A stretch of 52,101 nucleotides of DNA from a virus (lineage: Duplodnaviria > Caudoviricetes): IMG/VR virus record IMGVR_UViG_3300014933_000056, positions 1-52,101 of that record, one strand, 5' to 3'. A program made the translations under genes and the position numbers. Below, in pieces: positions 2,989 to 11,056 of this stretch. The notes beneath the pieces were generated by a model. The model saw only the letters and a list, made by a program, of their open reading frames with translations. It ran no database searches and was not told the origin of the DNA. The first letter of the stretch is position 1. Each line of letters begins with the position of its first letter.

Positions 2989-3012
2989 GATCCCTCCGTG
3001 ATTGATGTGAAG

Positions 3013-3030
3013 AGTCTAACACGGGATTAG
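3013..3030 (-). promoter_or_regulatory. putative extended -10 promoter / operator
   Basis: Minus strand CTAATCCCGTGTTAGACT; imperfect CTAA-N7-TTAG palindrome shared with 12151-12167. Confidence 0.45.
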
Positions 3031-3037
3031 GGTCTGG

Positions 3038-3232
3038 CTATAGATTCATTCCTTCATATTTCTTAGCATTGCTTTGACACATTACACAAATCCGACGCTC
3101 ACCGGATTCTTTATGTACATTCTTACCACCTCTTTTCATCCCACCCGTACTTAACATCCGACAGGCAGTATCACTGCCTACCCATATGTGAGCTGCTGTA
3201 CTTTTCTTGTTTAGGTTATAAAAATATTCCAT
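3038..3232 (-). CDS. hypothetical protein, possible Zn binder
   Basis: AHIW...TAC...CVMC. Confidence 0.65.
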   Translation of the reverse strand: MEYFYNLNKKSTAAHIWVGSDTACRMLSTGGMKRGGKNVHKESGERRICVMCQSNAKKYEGMNL

Positions 3233-3601
3233 GTTTATCGCAGAGGGAAGTGACTGAGTCTTTTAGGCAAAATCCACCCCTACCCCTGACGCATCAGGGA
3301 AGGGCTGGGGATCGTTATCGCGTCGGTCGTTTCTTCGCAATTGTCGGTCACGCTCATCTCTCAATGTTCCGTCGTGACTGGCAAGACATTTAGACCCATT
3401 GTGAGGCCTCTTCTTAGCGCACTTGCCGAGCTTGTCCCAATTGTTGCTGTTGCTCCGGAGCACCCTAATCTCTCGACCCGGTTCCGTTCTGGCAGTTAAT
3501 CAACAATCGGCGCTATCTCCACCCGCGCTTGCCGAATCGATAGTTTTTTCGGCTCTCGCCCCAGACCAAAACGTACGTGGTCACCAAAATTTCTGAGGCA
3601 A

Positions 3602-3762
3602 GGTATCGGCAGAAAGCAAAAAACCCATTGGTGAACGAGCTTTAGGCTTGGTTGCCACATGTGAAAAGTGCGATACCACTTAACACAGCTTTGACGAAGC
3701 CCGCTCACCAATGGGTTTGCAGGGTCACTTGTATCGAGCTACAACGGGTTACCAATCCGTTG
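3602..3762 (-). ncRNA. c4-like antisense RNA with flanking target sites
   Basis: Long stem (about 3621-3642 with 3697-3718) ending in a U-tract. Internal hairpin loop GTATCG is complementary to CGATAC both upstream (3731-3736) and downstream (3603-3608). 5' hairpin at 3742-3762. Confidence 0.6.
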
Positions 3763-3770
3763 ATGGTGAA

Positions 3771-3799
3771 ATTTTAGGACATGTCCTATTTTATTGCAA
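3771..3799 (-). promoter_or_regulatory. sigma70 promoter with palindromic operator
   Basis: TTGCAA (3794-3799), 17 bp, TAAAAT (3771-3776); perfect 14-bp palindrome TAGGACATGTCCTA at 3775-3788. Confidence 0.75.
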
Positions 3800-3803
3800 G
3801 GGT

Positions 3804-4192
3804 TGTTGGCGCCCCCGAGCTTGAACGGGCGTTTAAGGGAAATCGATTCGCTACCAGCCACACCAACACGGCTGAGGACTACTAGGGGGCACTGCCCTTC
3901 TAAGCTCCGGCACTCTCGGAGGCAATCCTCATGCGTCTTGAGACTGTAAACTTAAAACAAGCCTACTGTAAACTTAACCAACACGGCTGAGAATTTAGTT
4001 ACAGTTGCGATCTGTATGGAGTTCGGGATTAAGGACAATATTACGTGTAGCTGCAGCTATTGACGTAAGTGACTCTCCACTGACCGATCTTCTACCACCC
4101 AAATTCTCATGCGTCTTGGTTGTTGGTACGAGACGCAAATGGGGAACGAGGCCAAAGCCTACGCCCGATCACCGCAACTTCTCATACCAACA
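3804..4192 (-). ncRNA. array of four stem-loop units, two with an identical bulged basal stem
   Basis: accaacacggctgag at 3862-3876 and 3977-3991; ctcatgcgtcttg at 3928-3940 and 4106-4118; TGTTGG/CCAACA-closed units at 3804-3868 and 4121-4192; TATAAT at 4201-4206. Confidence 0.55.
3943..3977. repeat. 13-bp direct repeat actgtaaacttaa x2
   Basis: Copies at 3943-3955 and 3965-3977. Confidence 0.85.
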
Positions 4193-4201
4193 TGCTGAAT
4201 A

Positions 4202-5065
4202 TTATACCGCCACTTCCTGACACTGCATAAGCTTTCGCACCACCGCAAACAATCCATGCTTCTGGTGCAAATCATTGGCATCAAACCCTACCTCGTCAGC
4301 CATCACCCACGGGTGCCCTGTTTCCTCTGCAGACTTGGCGCCGGTTCCGCTTGCGTCGTTATCCGCAAAGATCATCACCTTGCCGGGTATCTGCGAGGCC
4401 ACTGCCACCATGTTCCCAGCACTGAAGCAAACCACCACCGAGGCCTTCATACCGCAGCTTCTGAGAGCTTGATGCACGCTCAGGCCAGTTGCATACCCCT
4501 CAACCAGCCAAGTCTCTCCTGCGTCCTTTACGCCCATCCTAAAGACCGCATTCTTAGCCCTCATGCCTGTGAGCATCTTCTTCACATACTTACGCTCGTC
4601 CGTATCCCAGATAATCTGCTGGTAGCCCTGCAACTTATTCGTGGCCACGTTACGCATCGGGATCAACAGGACGTCATCCAAAACGAAGCCCTTCTCTGCG
4701 CCAAATCCCTTAGCCGTCAGGTACGGGTGATCCTCCAGCTTAGCTGATCTCAGGATCATGTCAGCCTTCAGTGCTGTCTGCTCGTACTTATGCTGCTGCT
4801 CAGACTGCTGGGTTTGACGTTTAGCCGCCCACTGACGCTTTTCTTCGTCTGTCCATGGTTTGGCATTAGGATCGCTGTACCAAATTGTTCTTGCTTCACC
4901 TTGCCAATTAAAAATCCATCCTCTTTCACCATTCCACAAATAAGAGCCGTTTAATGAACGTGGTTTCTCTGTAGTGCCACAACGTCGTATTTTGTCTGAC
5001 GCATAAAATTTTGATGGATTAATTTCTAAACCATGCATTCTGGCAAAATTGATAAAACCATTCAT
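4202..5065 (-). CDS. Toprim-domain DNA primase
   Basis: HPYL..KG, LLIPM, WLVEGYATGLS, VVCFSAGN and IFADND Toprim motifs. Confidence 0.9.
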   Translation of the reverse strand: MNGFINFARMHGLEINPSKFYASDKIRRCGTTEKPRSLNGSYLWNGERGWIFNWQGEARTIWYSDPNAKPWTDEEKRQWAAKRQTQQSEQQHKYEQTALKADMILRSAKLEDHPYLTAKGFGAEKGFVLDDVLLIPMRNVATNKLQGYQQIIWDTDERKYVKKMLTGMRAKNAVFRMGVKDAGETWLVEGYATGLSVHQALRSCGMKASVVVCFSAGNMVAVASQIPGKVMIFADNDASGTGAKSAEETGHPWVMADEVGFDANDLHQKHGLFAVVRKLMQCQEVAV

Positions 5066-5622
5066 ATCAATCTCCCGTTTTCATTTGCCCATGCAATTGG
5101 GTCTTTATTGTATTTACGCAAATTGCATGTGGGGCATAACAATTGCAAATTTTCATCAGCGTGCATGCCGCCTAGATTAATTGGCATAACGTGGTCTAAA
5201 TGATGGCCACTGTTAATTAAATCGGTTTTGCAATTAATACATTTACCACATTGCATTTCCATCAACTTTTTTACAATCCCTTTTGAAATTTTCCCTACTT
5301 GCATGCGTTTTTTTGCTTTTCGGTTTTGATTGTAAATCCTAACCAAGTCTAAATTTTCTTTTTTCCAATTTAAATTAATTAATTTTACAAATGTTATATT
5401 TTTTGCCCGATATTCCTTGCATTGATTACGTAATTTTTCCTTGTTTTCAAAGTTGTACAACTTGCGATAATCTTGAATTTTTTCTTTGTTTTGATCCGCA
5501 TACAACTTAGCTTTTTTTGTATGGCATTTTTTGCATGCAGACCGAAGTCCAAAGATTGTGCCTTTTTGCTTGCCAAACTCAGATAAGTCTTTTTCTGCTT
5601 TGCACAGAGTGCATATTTTCAT
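5062..5622 (-). CDS. HNH homing endonuclease
   Basis: N-terminal CxxC...CxxC; CINC...HLDHVMP...GG.H...NLQLLCPTCN; very AT-rich relative to flanks. Confidence 0.9.
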   Translation of the reverse strand: MKICTLCKAEKDLSEFGKQKGTIFGLRSACKKCHTKKAKLYADQNKEKIQDYRKLYNFENKEKLRNQCKEYRAKNITFVKLINLNWKKENLDLVRIYNQNRKAKKRMQVGKISKGIVKKLMEMQCGKCINCKTDLINSGHHLDHVMPINLGGMHADENLQLLCPTCNLRKYNKDPIAWANENGRLI

Positions 5623-5652
5623 GATGAATCTCTCATGTACGAATCAAGAAGA

Positions 5653-5704
5653 ATGTGGCAGGCAGTGATTCAATCTGCTTTTCCCCCGCTAAAGGTAGCC
5701 ACAT
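5653..5704 (-). ncRNA. three-way-junction leader RNA of the HNH gene
   Basis: ATGTGGC/GCCACAT closing stem, CCTT-TAGC-GGGG and GCAG-ATTGAATCA-CTGC hairpins; loop complementary to GATTC sites at 5641-5646 and 5625-5630 next to the ATG. Confidence 0.55.
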
Positions 5705-5709
5705 CAAAA

Positions 5710-7889: not shown

Positions 7890-8007
7890 TTTTGTTCCCT
7901 TCATTCGTCAGCACGTAAATTATTAAAAATATTAATGTTGCTACCCACATCATTCCCCCAGTAACTATCAGGAAGAAACTCAATGCACTGATAATCGCGT
8001 CAATCAT
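7882..8007 (-). CDS. small membrane protein (41 aa)
   Basis: Hand-translated MIDAIISALSFFLIVTGGMMWVATLIFLIIYVLTNEGNKND; fills the operon gap. Confidence 0.55.
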   Translation of the reverse strand: MIDAIISALSFFLIVTGGMMWVATLIFLIIYVLTNEGNKND

Positions 8008-8683
8008 TTTGATGTCCTCTTTTCTTTATTCTATTTTGTGCTGCTTTTTTTAAATTGGCTTTGTGCTCTTCAGTAAATTTCATTCCTAACCGTGCTTTAC
8101 TAATAGACAAACCATGCGTCCTTGAATAAGGCTTTCGTTTAATGCCAATTTGAATTTCACTTAAATGTTTTTTTGCAGATTCTGACATTGGTTTTCGAGG
8201 TTTTTTTCTATCAATTTTTTTTCTATTTTCTTCCAAAGCGTTTAATTGTTTTTCTGTTTGACCTTTTAATTTTTTTGTCTCACTAATTTTTTTTGCAATT
8301 TGAGGATCACGTTTAATTCCTTTAAATAAAGATGGTTTACCTTTGTTATGAGCAATACGCTTTTTATTTTTATCCCAAGGTTTGTCACCTTGATCATCAT
8401 AAGAAGCTTTAACATGATGGTTAAATAACAAACCGCTGTCTTTATATTTATCAAGCCAAACTTGCTCAAGATGAATACGTTTTTGTTTATCGTTCTCTTC
8501 TTGTTCTTCAATAAATTTAATGCATCCATATTTGTTAAAATAATTTTGCAAATATTTGCAATGATGTTTGTTTTTTCGCAAAAGCCATAAATGATGTGCT
8601 TTTCGCGTCGTAAATTTCTTGGTTCTACCAATATAAAACTTATCCGAATCTTCAACGCGAATGGTGTAAATTCCGCCCGTCAT
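8000..8683 (-). CDS. GIY-YIG homing endonuclease with NUMOD3-like repeats
   Basis: GIYTI...FYIG.T...R...H, EQ.W, N; MSESAKKHLS and FTEEHKANL repeats; AT-rich; GGAGG RBS. Confidence 0.9.
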   Translation of the reverse strand: MTGGIYTIRVEDSDKFYIGRTKKFTTRKAHHLWLLRKNKHHCKYLQNYFNKYGCIKFIEEQEENDKQKRIHLEQVWLDKYKDSGLLFNHHVKASYDDQGDKPWDKNKKRIAHNKGKPSLFKGIKRDPQIAKKISETKKLKGQTEKQLNALEENRKKIDRKKPRKPMSESAKKHLSEIQIGIKRKPYSRTHGLSISKARLGMKFTEEHKANLKKAAQNRIKKRGHQND

Positions 8684-8704: not shown

Positions 8705-11056
8705 TTATATCTTTTTTCTCTTCTGCCATGAAATATTCATCTGCCGAATCTTATTGACCACGTTAGTCGTGATCTCTACGTTCGGTGCCTTGCTAAACGC
8801 CCACTTCGTGTCCTGCCCTGTCATCTGTTTAAACAGGTGCCACGCCCTACCTGACTGCGACTCCGGCTTGCTGTGATACCTCGCATAGGTACAGATCTGA
8901 TTCCATAAGTGCTCAGCGTTATCTGCAAGCTTTCTTTTGCTGACACCCTCGCCAATAAAGATCTCTTTCATATGACCCGGCAAAGCCTCGCTGACCTGCT
9001 TACTTACCCGCTCAAACCCGCAGGCCATGCACCGCTTATGAAACGGCAGGTAGCCGCAACGTGGGCATCCCTTGGCGTCGAACTCTTCCTTGGTGCGGAT
9101 CTTCTTATCCAGCTTGTCACCGGCGTCCAGCTCAGCCAATCCGTTGAAAAATATCTCGTTGAAGTCCTCAAAAAACCGAATGATGTTTCCCGAGAAATCC
9201 AACAAGTGGCAGTCCTTCTTGCCTGTCTCAGGTGATACACGCAGGCCACGCCCCCACATCTGGATAGCCGTGCTCAGTGACTTACGAAGTGGCCTTGCAT
9301 CGCAGATACAACCAACGTCAGGTACGTCAAAGCCCTTCGCTAAGGCCTCTACGGAGATCAAGACCTTCAGGTAGCTATCAGGCTTGCGGTACTCGTCCAA
9401 AAGCATCTCGCGCTCTTTAGCGGTGGTCTCTGAGGTAAAGACTGCAGCCATCACACCGGCGGCAATAAACTGACGAGCCAGCTCTTCGCAGTGCTTAATC
9501 GTTGCGCCAAAGATGATGGTCTTGCGGTTGTCGCCAAACTTCTGCCAATCGTTCACCACGTCCCCAACGATCTTCAGCTCACGCTCTTCGGCTGCTTTTT
9601 CTGTCCACTCGCCGCCCTTGGTCTCTGCGCCTGTCATATCGGGCTTAGCGCACGAAAATATGCGCATGGGTACCAACACCCCCGACTGAGTCAGATCGTG
9701 CATCGTGGTGGCGTTTACGATGTTTGTGAATACCTTCCCAAGGCCTGCAGTAAACGGGGTAGCCGACAAACCAATTACCGTAGCGTTCGTCTCTTTGGCA
9801 AACTCAGTCCATGCCTTGTAGGTCGTATGGCAGTTGTGAACTAAGATGCCCTCTGCAAAATATGATGGATGGCCTGAGACCCGTAGGTTGTAAACAAGTT
9901 CATCGCTTCCTCGTTCTTCAACCTCAACACTTTCCACCCAAGGTTGCGAAGCAAAGCATCCTTTTTCTGATCCTGCATTTGACGCTTCGACGCCCCATGG
10001 CTCGGGCCATCCAGTTCGATTGCAATCATCAGTTCCTTGTTCGCCACATCCACCTTGTAGTGATGCGGATAGCCCTGCTTCGAGGACTTCAATGTGCAAA
10101 TAACGACCTCTGTTAGCCATGGGAAGCCTAACGCTTGTGCCGCCATGGCTTGTGGTTTTGTTAGACCAGTACCATTGCCTCCACGTACCTTCGGCCCATG
10201 ACCGATTGCCTTCAATGTTTTCTGCATTTTCAGGCGCGATTCTTCGGAGTGCATCGGGTTCTTCAGCCTCTTCGCACAAGACTGCCCACAGCATTGTTGC
10301 TGTTTGAAGTTCGACTCCAGTTGAGGCATCGGCTTCCCGTTGTAGCCTTTCACCATTTTTGGCATGAAGGGTTTTGTACAAACCACACACATCTTGAAAG
10401 CGAAATAACCGCGAACCGATTTCCAAGGAGCCAGCGGGTCGCCATCCCAAGTTGGTAAATATTGGATGGTCTGGGGTGCATTCAAATTTTGTTCCATCGG
10501 ACAACCTCACTTTGCAAATTGATGATGCTGGCTTTGAAAAGACAGAGTCAATTCGACCAACGCCCATTGCATTGTATATGAGTTCGCCACTATGCAGTGT
10601 GCGTATCTCACGATATCCATGAGGAGTGGCTATCAATGTGTCGCCGGGGAAGCACTCATCAACCACCAGAACGTCCATCTGAGGCCAGAACTCGCGCTTG
10701 GCGATAGTCTGCACACTAGCGATTTGGAATAGCTCATCAGGACGCCTGCGCCAGTGCTTGGCTTGGATTACGCCGTGGGCATGCATACCGTAGCGATCAG
10801 CGACCGCAGAAGTTTGGTTGATTAGGGTTGTGCGATCACACAGGAAGACAGCACGTTTACCCTTCTGAACGGCCTCGTTGCAGATACGCAGGCCTAGGTA
10901 AGTCTTCCCAGCACCCGTAGGCGCCATGATCAATTGATTCTTATGTCCTTCCCTGAAACCCTTCCGTAAGGCTTCATGAGCCTGTAATTGGAAGGGTCTT
11001 GCTTCAGGGAATTTGGTTCCATCATCACGCTCACTTGGCGCTAGGGTAGAAGTCAT
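8705..11056 (-). CDS. SF2 (DEAD/DEAH-box) DNA helicase, intein-containing
   Basis: APTGAGKT; DE|CH split by the intein; GLSATP; KGFDVP; QMWGRGLR; C-terminal CPRC..C..C. Confidence 0.92.
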   Translation of the reverse strand: MTSTLAPSERDDGTKFPEARPFQLQAHEALRKGFREGHKNQLIMAPTGAGKTYLGLRICNEAVQKGKRAVFLCDRTTLINQTSAVADRYGMHAHGVIQAKHWRRRPDELFQIASVQTIAKREFWPQMDVLVVDECFPGDTLIATPHGYREIRTLHSGELIYNAMGVGRIDSVFSKPASSICKVRLSDGTKFECTPDHPIFTNLGWRPAGSLEIGSRLFRFQDVCGLYKTLHAKNGERLQREADASTGVELQTATMLWAVLCEEAEEPDALRRIAPENAENIEGNRSWAEGTWRQWYWSNKTTSHGGTSVRLPMANRGRYLHIEVLEAGLSASLQGGCGEQGTDDCNRTGWPEPWGVEASNAGSEKGCFASQPWVESVEVEERGSDELVYNLRVSGHPSYFAEGILVHNCHTTYKAWTEFAKETNATVIGLSATPFTAGLGKVFTNIVNATTMHDLTQSGVLVPMRIFSCAKPDMTGAETKGGEWTEKAAEERELKIVGDVVNDWQKFGDNRKTIIFGATIKHCEELARQFIAAGVMAAVFTSETTAKEREMLLDEYRKPDSYLKVLISVEALAKGFDVPDVGCICDARPLRKSLSTAIQMWGRGLRVSPETGKKDCHLLDFSGNIIRFFEDFNEIFFNGLAELDAGDKLDKKIRTKEEFDAKGCPRCGYLPFHKRCMACGFERVSKQVSEALPGHMKEIFIGEGVSKRKLADNAEHLWNQICTYARYHSKPESQSGRAWHLFKQMTGQDTKWAFSKAPNVEITTNVVNKIRQMNISWQKRKKI
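9833..10654 (-). mobile_element. intein (274 aa) in helicase motif II
   Basis: CFPGDTLI block A; ECTPDHPIF block B; VYNLRV...YFAEGILVHN blocks F/G followed by Cys+1; removal restores VVDECH. Confidence 0.93.
9841..10497 (-). CDS. Vsr/DUF559-like endonuclease overprinted on the intein (+1 frame)
   Basis: CVVC...CCGQSC Zn motif; NPMHSEESRLKM; YKVDVA...IAIELDGPSH...D..KD..L...GWKVLR; TGAGGT 6 nt before the ATG. Confidence 0.85.
   Translation of the reverse strand: MEQNLNAPQTIQYLPTWDGDPLAPWKSVRGYFAFKMCVVCTKPFMPKMVKGYNGKPMPQLESNFKQQQCCGQSCAKRLKNPMHSEESRLKMQKTLKAIGHGPKVRGGNGTGLTKPQAMAAQALGFPWLTEVVICTLKSSKQGYPHHYKVDVANKELMIAIELDGPSHGASKRQMQDQKKDALLRNLGWKVLRLKNEEAMNLFTTYGSQAIHHILQRAS

What the first reader, a model, noticed from the sequence alone, without database searches (positions are those of the whole stretch)
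3804..4206. Promoter-driven array of hairpin cassettes with constant stems and variable cargo
Seen: a TATAAT box (4201-4206, minus) is followed at once by four abutting or overlapping stem-loops. Two share an identical bulged base, CAAGACGCATGAG...CTCAGCCGTGTTGGT (13 and 15 nt exact), around unrelated inserts of about 50 and 115 nt. The other two are closed by TGTTGG/CCAACA, one with a GTTCAA T-loop-like word. A 13-bp direct repeat between units is near-complementary to ACTGTAACT inside the larger unit. Inference: the constant stems are processing sites (RNase III-like) that release several small RNAs or tRNA-derived mimics.
Basis: partly seen in the sequence, partly recalled or inferred. Interest (0 to 1): 0.72.

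Follow-up and report, generated by a model that had tools for sequence, protein, structure and literature searches.

The report
Modular phage RNA hairpin cassettes
The four hairpins are real and belong to a large, apparently undescribed family of phage RNA modules that keep a near-constant closing stem around very varied inner folds, probably as RNA-processing platforms, though their function is untested.

Summary
Downstream of a primase-like gene, on the minus strand, lie four hairpins of two kinds.

**X units (two, 4119-3978 and 3941-3863).** Each has a 9-bp stem, a 2x2 internal loop (CA/GC), then a second 9-bp stem with a conserved U.G wobble. The inner domains are unrelated.

**Y units (two, 4191-4122 and 3867-3805).** These are closed by GUUGG...CCAAC.

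**The X stem is widespread.** It recurs in at least 160 viral contigs as 194 distinct units carrying about 106 inner-domain types. It shows compensatory changes and a strong excess of G.U over A.C pairs, so it acts as a single strand of this sense, most likely RNA.

**Y stems resemble tRNA acceptor stems.** In relatives the Y stem is exactly 7 bp, and some Y units are tRNA-like. X units often start on the CCA end of a real tRNA.

**Distribution.** The modules usually sit just upstream of terminase genes, but only 4 of 80 closely related phages carry a full X. I found none in 185,579 bacterial genomes, no Rfam family and no matching paper.

**Best reading (about 0.45).** These are exchangeable RNA cassettes whose constant stems are processing and stability platforms: RNase III-type geometry for X, RNase P-type for Y. 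Cleavage is not shown, and the TATAAT "promoter" is only the primase stop-codon region.

The parts
4122..4191 (-). Y-A: a Y-type hairpin, GUUGGUAUGAGA...UCUCGUACCAAC, with a 12-bp closing stem. It starts 11 nt after the primase stop and is followed by AA and then X-B.
   Evidence: Sequence; inverted repeat I4. MFE -32.2 kcal/mol, z -4.54. No homologue among the held loci.
3978..4119 (-). X-B: an X-type unit. P1 is CCAAG-ACG / CGU-GUUGG, the internal loop is CA/GC, and P2 is UGAGAAUUU / AAAUUCUCA. The branched inner domain is about 100 nt.
   Evidence: Covariance model R1, which was not trained on this unit, scores 47.9 bits, E 1e-13, over 3976-4120. It is 94% identical over 140 nt to the first X of L223. 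z -3.45.
3943..3977 (-). Doublet of the 13-nt direct repeat TTAAGTTTACAGT (3977-3965 and 3955-3943), 22 nt start to start. Read together the two copies give a promoter-like TTTACA-18-TACAGT that ends 2 nt before X-C.
   Evidence: (D3). The same doublet lies directly before X units in L016, L033 and L034, after an X in L031, and in the opposite orientation in L010.
3863..3941 (-). X-C: an X-type unit with the same P1, loop and P2 (UGAGGAUUG / UAGUCCUCA). The inner domain is two small hairpins.
   Evidence: R1 scores 58.7 bits over 3861-3942, but this unit was in the training alignment. It is 90.5% identical to the X of L259. Positions 3862-3936 are 100% identical to a contig of an RNA-library run that has a different 5' flank. 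z -3.50.
3805..3867 (-). Y-D: a Y-type hairpin, GUUGGUG...CGCCAAC, whose 5' strand is the last 5 nt of X-C's P1. It contains a UUCAAGC T-loop-like hairpin 2 nt from the 3' strand and is followed by AACCC.
   Evidence: Sequence. The fold is no better than shuffles (z +0.33). No homologue in the held loci. Not called as a tRNA.
4201..4206 (-). The TATAAT word. It overlaps the TAA stop codon of the primase-like gene and is not supported as a promoter.
   Evidence: ORF 4202-5065, with a Toprim_3 domain. The promoter scan does not list it.
3612..3799 (-). A neighbouring small-RNA-like gene that is not part of the array. It has a promoter-like TTGCAA-17-TAAAAT (3799-3771) with the palindrome TAGGACATGTCCTA in its spacer, followed by a roughly 150-nt structured stretch ending in a 22-bp hairpin and a U run.
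   Evidence: (I1). z -5.82. Conserved in L002, which lacks the array, and in L031, L246 and L264.

Best explanation
The array is a set of exchangeable, non-coding RNA cassettes. It is transcribed with the primase operon and probably also from the repeat-doublet promoter.

There are two module types:
- **X modules** have a near-constant helix of about 20 bp with a central 2x2 internal loop and a conserved U.G wobble. The inner domain is free to vary.
- **Y modules** are closed by a tRNA-acceptor-like stem, GUUGG..CCAAC followed by A.

I infer that the constant stems are recognition platforms for host RNA-processing enzymes. An RNase III-type enzyme would cut at the central loop of X. RNase P would cut at the invariant U|G junction where X ends and Y begins. 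The transcript would then be divided into stable structured small RNAs and separate mRNA segments, much as tRNAs punctuate some transcripts.

**Shown:** the family exists, it is selected as a single strand of this sense, its helices covary, it is linked to tRNAs and terminase genes, and it is accessory and modular.

**Inferred:** that the strand is RNA rather than ssDNA, that it is cleaved, by which enzymes, and what the released RNAs do.
For: **The family**
- All 43 units of the first scan share the extended consensus.
- In total there are 194 distinct units in 160 loci.

**Negative control**
- A looser pattern run on bacterial genomes gave 113 matches, of which only 1 had the family's extended pairing.
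- A specific pattern gave 0 hits in one genome from each of 185,579 species.

**Structure**
- All the minimum-free-energy folds that I saw (the output was cut) give P1, the CA/GC loop, then P2.
- On 101 sequences, 93.2% of cells pair against 87.9% when shuffled. There are 97 double-change cells against 29.9 (0 of 500 shuffles reach this). Slid controls pair at 31-46%. Eight of 18 pairs show compensatory change.

**Strand**
- At variable stem positions there are 209 G.U/U.G cells against 25 A.C/C.A cells.
- A U.G wobble is kept in 164 of 194 units.

**Link to tRNAs**
- X starts exactly on CCA+A+(G/C) of real tRNAs in L020, L024, L228, L032, L245 and L231.
- 112 of 169 X units are followed by CCAACA within 30-230 nt, against 12% of control windows.
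- The Y stem pairs at base pairs 6 and 7 in 93% and 93% of cases (shuffled 76% and 64%). At base pairs 8 and 9 it drops to shuffle level, 42% and 32%. That is an acceptor-stem length of 7 bp.
- The X|Y junction is U|G and Y is followed by A. These match the usual RNase P -1/+1 and discriminator preferences, which I recall rather than tested.
- Some Y units have D and T arms.

**Geometry**
- The arrangement 9 bp + 2 + 9 bp puts the loop at the dyad of a two-turn helix, as described for RNase III single-strand cleavage sites (passages of PMC3867540).

**Context**
- terL lies on the same strand, a median of 764 nt downstream, in 77 of 160 loci (76 of those 77 on the same strand).
- A sigma-70-like promoter lies within 3-14 nt upstream of the first X in 12 of 152 loci, against 1% of controls.

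**Free inner domain**
- There are about 106 inner-domain types and no shared motif, as expected if only the base of the stem is recognised.
Against: - No RNA ends were seen. The only RNA-library hit is one 165-nt contig at a small share, and it could be DNA carry-over.
- The helix is conserved in sequence far more strictly than known RNase III sites require. This points to a sequence-specific partner or to recent spread.
- The module is dispensable. Only 4 of 80 loci chosen by TerL similarity carry a full X, and 4 more carry a mini version. In most relatives terS and terL simply overlap.
- Up to three X-Y modules sit between the same two genes in L314, which is more than processing would need.
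- Only 5 of 97 Y units have a canonical T arm stacked on the stem.
- Y-D folds no better than shuffles, and no window unit scores as a tRNA.
- The same strand asymmetry would arise in single-stranded DNA.
- The host is unknown.
Confidence: 0.45

Rival explanations
1. The modules are scaffolded trans-acting RNAs. The constant stems only stabilise and mature the molecule, and the variable inner domain is the effector, for example a decoy or aptamer for host defence or tRNA-targeting proteins, or a regulator of host genes.
For: About 106 different inner domains sit on one scaffold. Inner domains are conserved and covary within their own families, and nearly identical ones occur in unrelated flanks. 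The modules are accessory and sporadic like other phage auxiliary genes. Some Y units are tRNA-like scaffolds with large inserts in the anticodon region.
Against: No target is known. There is no significant complementarity to the phage's own genome: the best hits are a 17-nt match with one mismatch at E 0.25 and 12-nt matches at E about 1. No shared motif was found among the inner domains. Diversity alone is equally expected if the top of the hairpin is unconstrained.
Confidence: 0.2
2. The modules are a cis-acting leader of the late (packaging) operon. They would act as an RNA that modifies RNA polymerase or controls termination, translation or stability of the terminase message, in the way HK022 put RNA does.
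For: The position is typically just upstream of terS/terL on the same strand. Y units often end about 8 nt before a Shine-Dalgarno sequence. Some X units lie right at a promoter. The GUUGG word can pair either upstream or downstream, so a structural switch is possible.
Against: Absent from most close relatives, whose terS and terL overlap directly. In this window the array is about 4 kb and roughly 12 small ORFs away from the terminase genes. Also found after tRNAs and after a primase gene. Occurs in 1 to 4 tandem copies with different inner domains.
Confidence: 0.12
3. The modules are DNA-level elements. The hairpins would form in single-stranded DNA as ends or recombination sites of a non-autonomous mobile element, like IS200/IS605-type palindromic elements or integron attC sites. 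CCAAC/GTTGG would be the core site repeated in alternating orientation.
For: The units are discrete modules bounded exactly by the stem, and identical units occur in unrelated flanks. There is presence/absence polymorphism and a variable copy number between the same genes. The outline of stem, small unpaired spacer, stem and variable top resembles attC. The strand asymmetry is also compatible with ssDNA.
Against: Filled and empty sites do not differ by a clean insertion: the terS end and the terL start are re-coded. The phage has no tyrosine recombinase. GTTGGTG/T does not fit the attC R' consensus GTTRRRY, which I recall from memory. Orientation follows transcription (76 of 77 terL loci). The 7-bp acceptor-like stems, true D/T arms and fusion to tRNA CCA ends are RNA features.
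Confidence: 0.1
4. X is a new self-cleaving ribozyme, or part of one, that trims neighbouring tRNA-like RNAs.
For: X abuts tRNA 3' ends as HDV-like ribozymes do in some phages (a comparison I recall rather than tested). The internal loop and the U.G wobble are conserved. One related array (L032) also holds a hammerhead-like sequence, at 19.9 bits against a gathering score of 34.
Against: Conserved unpaired nucleotides are limited to a 2x2 loop, and no conserved junction or loop nucleotides exist in the inner domain. There is no match to any Rfam ribozyme at E up to 10. The hammerhead association is a single locus.
Confidence: 0.04

Closest known systems
Bacteriophage T7-type RNase III processing signals
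   Same: Both are intergenic hairpins on the sense strand of phage operons, about two helical turns long, with a small internal loop where cleavage would fall. The base is conserved and the top is variable. The expected products are upstream RNAs ending in a protective hairpin (passages of PMC3867540).
   Different: X units are present once or a few times per genome and in only a minority of related phages. Their helix sequence is almost invariant across unrelated contexts. Their tops are large branched domains. They are fused to tRNA-like neighbours. No cleavage has been shown.
tRNA and tRNA-like punctuation processed by RNase P (pre-tRNA leaders; the phage P1/P7 C4 and P4 CI RNAs; mitochondrial tRNA punctuation). 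All of this is recalled, not read here.
   Same: The closing stem is 7 bp with U at -1, G at +1 and A after the 3' strand. Some members have D and T arms. The units lie between genes on the coding strand.
   Different: Most Y units lack a canonical T arm (5 of 97) and have no anticodon arm. None in this window is called by ARAGORN or the Rfam tRNA model. CCA is not encoded after the stem.
Integron attC sites
   Same: The outline is stem, small unpaired spacer, stem and a variable terminal structure of very different lengths. The structure is strand-specific and the units occur in arrays.
   Different: The units have no ORF cassettes, and the phage has no integrase. The core does not fit GTTRRRY. 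The units abut each other and tRNAs, and they follow the transcription direction.
Bacterial Y RNAs (YrlA)
   Same: A conserved protein-binding stem is formed by the two ends, joined to a variable, partly tRNA-like module. Y RNAs are also found in some phages (recalled).
   Different: There is no Rfam Y RNA hit, no Ro/TROVE gene in the phage, and a different stem sequence.

Membership tests
X-type module (family defined here, model R1) | P1 (9 bp), CA/GC 2x2 internal loop, P2 (9 bp with a U.G wobble), variable inner domain | tested here: met
   Exactly two hits in the window: 3861-3942 at 58.7 bits (a training member) and 3976-4120 at 47.9 bits, E 1e-13 (not in training). The next hit scores 10.7 bits.
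Y-type module (defined here) | Closing stem GUUGG+2 / 2+CCAAC, 7 bp, followed by A, with its 5' strand shared with the preceding X | tested here: met
   Y-D at 3867-3805 has a 7-bp stem followed by AACCC and shares GUUGG with X-C. Y-A at 4191-4122 has a longer 12-bp stem and no X before it.
tRNA | Cloverleaf recognised by ARAGORN or Rfam RF00005 | tested here: not met
   ARAGORN finds 0 genes in the window. There is no tRNA hit at gathering score or at E up to 10 in 3000-4400.
tRNA | T arm (5-bp stem, 7-nt UUCRANY loop) stacked directly on the acceptor 3' strand | tested here: inconclusive
   Y-D has a UUCAAGC loop on a 4-5 bp stem, but offset by 2 nt. In relatives only 5 of 97 Y units have a canonical T arm at offset 0, and 14 of 97 have a 9-nt-loop hairpin there.
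RNase III processing signal | Helix of about 20-22 bp with the target site at its centre; mismatches there give single-strand cleavage | tested here: met
   The geometry is 9 + 2 + 9 in all 194 units by construction of the searches, and in the folds I saw. The criterion comes from PMC3867540.
RNase III processing signal | Cleaved by RNase III | not testable with these tools
   This needs an enzyme assay or end mapping in an rnc mutant. The phage itself encodes no RNase III.
Integron attC | R''/R' core RYYYAAC / GTTRRRY, and an integron integrase or ORF cassettes | tested here: not met
   The core here is GTTGGTG or GTTGGTT; the consensus itself is recalled. No Phage_integrase-family match in the genome. 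The units abut with no ORFs between them.
IS200/IS605-type palindromic element | Clean insertion next to a short target, with an empty site in relatives | tested here: not met
   Empty relatives (terS/terL overlapping) and filled relatives differ in the flanking codons as well. I did not search for a transposase.
Retron msr/msd | Adjacent reverse transcriptase | tested here: not met
   No RVT_1 match in the genome.
Y RNA / YrlA | Rfam model match; Ro (TROVE) partner | tested here: not met
   No Rfam hit and no TROVE match.
Known self-cleaving ribozymes and phi29 pRNA (those held in Rfam 15) | Match to the family covariance model | tested here: not met
   In 3000-4400, both strands, at E up to 10, there are only two chance-level matches, MIR529 and sR4.
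HK022 put-type antiterminator RNA | Acts in cis on RNA polymerase at the start of an operon | not testable with these tools
   Of the contexts seen, only some are promoter-proximal (12 of 152). The element is missing from most close relatives.

The most novel reading that the evidence does not exclude
Phages of this group carry a cassette system of 'display' RNAs. Two conserved scaffolds, the X helix and a tRNA-like Y stem, present more than a hundred different structured domains. The cassettes are swapped between phages as discrete modules and stacked in arrays.

The invariant helix, with its CA/GC loop and U.G wobble, would be the docking site of one conserved cellular or phage protein. The variable domains would act as decoys or aptamers in the contest with host defences. 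That would make this an RNA counterpart of a gene-cassette array.
Probability: 0.2. Interest if true: 0.9.

Novelty: new variant of a known kind. Interest (0 to 1): 0.7.

Why it matters
If the reading holds, a common group of uncultured phages uses a compact, portable RNA module to cut and stabilise its transcripts, or to deliver many different small structured RNAs. The module is a sequence-invariant helix joined to a tRNA-like stem.

- The family is large, has clear covariation and matches no Rfam model, so it can be tested directly with standard assays.
- The invariant helix with a conserved wobble predicts a specific protein partner that could be fished out.
- The scaffold could be useful as a natural RNA insulator or expression scaffold.
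- Even if the function is ordinary processing, it would be a rare documented case of tRNA-style punctuation combined with RNase III-style hairpins, spreading as an accessory cassette between phages.

Tried and rejected
- **GenBank phages.** BLAST of the 1.1-kb region found no match. Single units found only the 19-22-nt arm, in one uncultured phage.
- **Loose pattern on bacterial genomes.** Almost all hits were chance, so I used it only as a control.
- **Mimicry of rRNA.** I thought the arms resembled 16S helix 24. Local alignment of the commonest arms against the E. coli rrnH operon scored no better than shuffles: 145 and 113 of 300 shuffles did as well.
- **Antisense targets in the phage genome.** None beyond chance.
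- **A shared motif in the inner domains.** None found. GTTC occurs in 24 of 106 types against 14 expected.
- **Hammerhead association.** Only one convincing locus, L032; the other 6 regex hits look like chance.
- **RNA evidence.** The run search gave two holders with shares of 0.08 and 0.06. Laying them showed only short contigs, so neither expression nor RNA ends can be claimed.
- **Earlier notes of this scan.** Nothing by sequence or for this genome. The word search returned an unrelated E. coli prophage leader RNA.
- **Literature.** Topic searches and a search for the motif strings found no description. The catalogue of 8,495 IMG/VR candidate RNAs in PMC10690425 (abstract and passages read) sits in supplements I could not open, so it may already list this motif.
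Full report
**What is in the window.** The window is a whole viral record of 52.1 kb, estimated 94% complete. Around the finding all genes run on the minus strand:
- a Toprim-domain primase-like gene at 4202-5065;
- an HNH gene at 5062-5622;
- then about 970 nt without a credible ORF, down to 3232;
- then a 2OG-Fe(II) oxygenase gene at 2347-2988.

The two repeated words are far beyond chance: 2 copies each, with shuffle expectations of 0.05 and 0.00.

Read in the sense of the genes, the stretch contains:
- Y-A (4191-4122);
- X-B (4119-3978);
- a doublet of a 13-nt direct repeat (3977-3943);
- X-C (3941-3863);
- Y-D (3867-3805), which shares its first five bases with the end of X-C.

Three of the four hairpins fold much better than shuffles (z -4.5, -3.5, -3.5). 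Y-D does not (z +0.33).

The TATAAT at 4206-4201 overlaps the primase stop codon and has no -35 partner. The promoter scan instead marks TTTACA-18-TACAGT, formed by the two repeat copies just before X-C, and TTGCAA-17-TAAAAT just after Y-D.

**The stem pair is a family.** ARAGORN finds no tRNA in the window. Rfam 15 finds only an int-alpA RNA elsewhere in the window, and nothing in 3000-4400 even at E 10.

A phage whose primase is 86% identical (L002) lacks the 400-nt array but keeps the structured element that follows it. The array is therefore an insertion or deletion difference between relatives.

Scanning the viral contig collection for ten bases of each arm, 35-65 nt apart, gave 43 loci. 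All of them share a longer consensus.

Together with the window this gives 194 distinct X units in 160 loci. As a control, a looser pattern on bacterial genomes gave 113 matches, of which one (a 2-kb MAG contig, L104) has the family's extended pairing. A specific pattern found none in one genome from each of 185,579 species.

A covariance model built from 101 units finds exactly two X units in the window. One of them, X-B, was not used for training and scores 47.9 bits, E 1e-13. The model also finds an unannotated copy in one deposited uncultured phage genome, MW202484.1, at 56.9 bits.

**Anatomy and strand.** Every fold I saw gives the same base:
- a 9-bp P1;
- a symmetric CA/GC internal loop;
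- a 9-bp P2;
- an inner domain of roughly 20 to 115 nt.

On the 101-sequence alignment, 93.2% of cells pair, against 87.9% after shuffling and 31-46% when partners are slid. Double changes number 97 against 29.9 expected (0 of 500 shuffles reach this), and 8 of 18 pairs show compensatory change. Five pairs are invariant because the search patterns fixed them.

At the variable stem positions there are 209 G.U or U.G cells against 25 A.C or C.A cells. One position is a U.G wobble in 164 of 194 units. Selection therefore acts on a single strand of the gene-sense orientation.

Variants of the internal loop exist but are rare: 191 of the CGTGTTGG ends are preceded by CAGC, and at least six clear X units carry CAAT, CATC or TAGC instead.

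The inner domains fall into about 106 types with no shared motif. Within a type, however, they are conserved and their own hairpins covary. Nearly identical units occur in unrelated flanks:
- X-B is 94% identical to a unit in L223;
- X-C is 90.5% identical to one in L259;
- 75 nt of X-C are identical in a contig of an RNA-library run that has a different upstream sequence.

**The second hairpin type and the link to tRNAs.** Of 169 X units with enough downstream sequence, 112 are followed by CCAACA within 30-230 nt. Only 12% of control windows show this.

The stem this word forms with the GUUGG end of X pairs at base pairs 6 and 7 in 93% of cases each. At base pairs 8 and 9 pairing drops to shuffle level. 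The stem is therefore 7 bp long, the length of a tRNA acceptor stem.

The junction reads U|G, and the 3' strand is followed by A.

Some Y units have ordinary D and T arms with a large insert where the anticodon arm should be (L214, L268, L221, L242, L276). Most do not: 5 of 97 have a canonical T arm stacked on the stem, and 14 of 97 have a 9-nt-loop hairpin there.

Conversely, X units begin exactly on CCA plus two bases of real tRNA genes in at least six loci. When no Y follows, the outer part of P1 is free to change. In L290 it reads UAAU/AUUA.

The window's TGTTGG/CCAACA hairpins are thus ordinary members of this second class. No homologue of their interiors was found.

**Context and distribution.** Near-complete genomes hold one or two X units (5 genomes).

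A Terminase_3 large-subunit gene lies on the same strand, a median of 764 nt downstream, in 77 of 160 loci. Small-subunit genes lie just after or just before the units. tRNA genes occur in 28 of 160 loci, a count that includes some doubtful intron-mode calls.

A promoter-like site lies within 3-14 nt upstream of the first X in 12 of 152 loci, against 1% of control positions. Other X units follow terminators, gene ends, Y units, or a small GAAAGA-loop hairpin.

In an unbiased sample of 80 loci chosen only by TerL similarity (77-94% identity), a full X is present in 4 and a minimal hairpin version in 4 more. Close relatives show three states:
- terS and terL overlapping, with nothing between them;
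- a mini-X plus a Y;
- one to three full X-Y modules.

The flanking codons differ between these states, so this is not a clean insertion.

In this window the array lies after the primase gene, about 4 kb upstream of the presumed terminase genes. This assumes the record is circularly permuted. That assignment rests on clustering with terminase ORFs of other loci, not on a domain search of the window's own ORFs.

**How it most likely works.** The pattern is a strict base with an unconstrained but well-folded top. It occurs in two stem types that abut each other and abut tRNAs, on the coding strand. The simplest explanation is that RNA-processing enzymes recognise the base.

X has the size and symmetry of an RNase III site, with the loop where the cut would fall. 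According to the review passages I read, mismatches at the target site give single-strand cleavage and leave a stabilising 3' hairpin (PMC3867540).

Y offers what RNase P needs at its 5' side. That this matches RNase P preferences is recalled knowledge, not tested here.

I put this reading at about 0.45. Several facts argue against it or leave it open:
- the helix sequence is conserved far more than RNase III needs;
- the cassette is dispensable and can be tripled;
- many Y units are poor tRNA mimics;
- no RNA ends have been seen;
- the phage encodes no RNase III, Ro, reverse transcriptase or tyrosine recombinase that could be a dedicated partner.

The rivals are:
- scaffolded effector RNAs whose variable domain is the active part (0.2);
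- a cis-acting leader of the late operon (0.12);
- a single-stranded-DNA mobile element (0.1);
- a new self-cleaving ribozyme (0.04).

**Known or new.** No Rfam 15 family matches the window or 13 related loci. Searches of the paper library by topic and by motif string found no description.

A 2023 catalogue of candidate structured RNAs from the same viral collection may contain the motif, but its lists are in supplements I could not open (PMC10690425).

I rate the finding as a new variant of known kinds (phage processing hairpins, tRNA-like elements) rather than categorically new, because no new mechanism has been shown.

Noticed in passing
window 3612-3799 (-): A separate small-RNA-like gene. 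It has a promoter-like TTGCAA-17-TAAAAT with a TAGGACATGTCCTA palindrome in its spacer. This is followed by a roughly 150-nt structure ending in a 22-bp hairpin and a U run (z -5.82). It is conserved in L002, L031, L246 and L264, in the last three just downstream of X/Y modules.
   Followed up: partly
window 5638-5705 (-): An int-alpA RNA (RF02996, 39 bits against a gathering score of 35.8) lies directly upstream of the HNH endonuclease gene 5062-5622.
   Followed up: no
window 8705-11056 (-), 8000-8683 (-): By eye, the 783-aa helicase-like ORF looks interrupted by an intein-like segment; I did not test this. Next to it is a GIY-YIG gene (Pfam). The phage seems rich in selfish elements.
   Followed up: no
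window 4187-4197 (-): Y-A is preceded by CAGCAUGUUGG, which resembles the 3' arm of an X unit (CAGCCGUGUUGG). It may be a remnant of an X truncated at the end of the primase gene.
   Followed up: no
L032 1200-2400 (-): An array of tRNA-Leu, four X units with Y-type spacers, and a hammerhead-like sequence at 1615-1662 (19.9 bits, below the gathering score of 34).
   Followed up: partly
12 of 196 distinct X upstream flanks, e.g. L032, L185, L189, L194, L271, L281; also the RNA-library contig: A small hairpin with a GGAAAGAC-type loop, preceded by UGACA, recurs immediately before X units (12 flagged hits, one of them, L190, a regex mis-hit). Its function is unknown.
   Followed up: partly
L285, L291, L292, L293 (about 2376-2410 or 988-1022): A 'mini-X': a plain hairpin, ACGCAU-loop-AUGCGU followed by GUUGG, with no internal loop and no inner domain. 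It sits in front of the same Y unit that follows a full X in close relatives.
   Followed up: partly
L003, L008, L014, L017, L028, L216, L238 and others, downstream of X: One Y family carries an invariant UUUUCUGGCUUUCC loop and ends right at the terL start codon, sometimes without a visible Shine-Dalgarno sequence.
   Followed up: no
L188, L226, L234, L259, L020, L024, L228: A tRNA-Met(CAU) gene is repeatedly the direct neighbour of X-Y modules.
   Followed up: no
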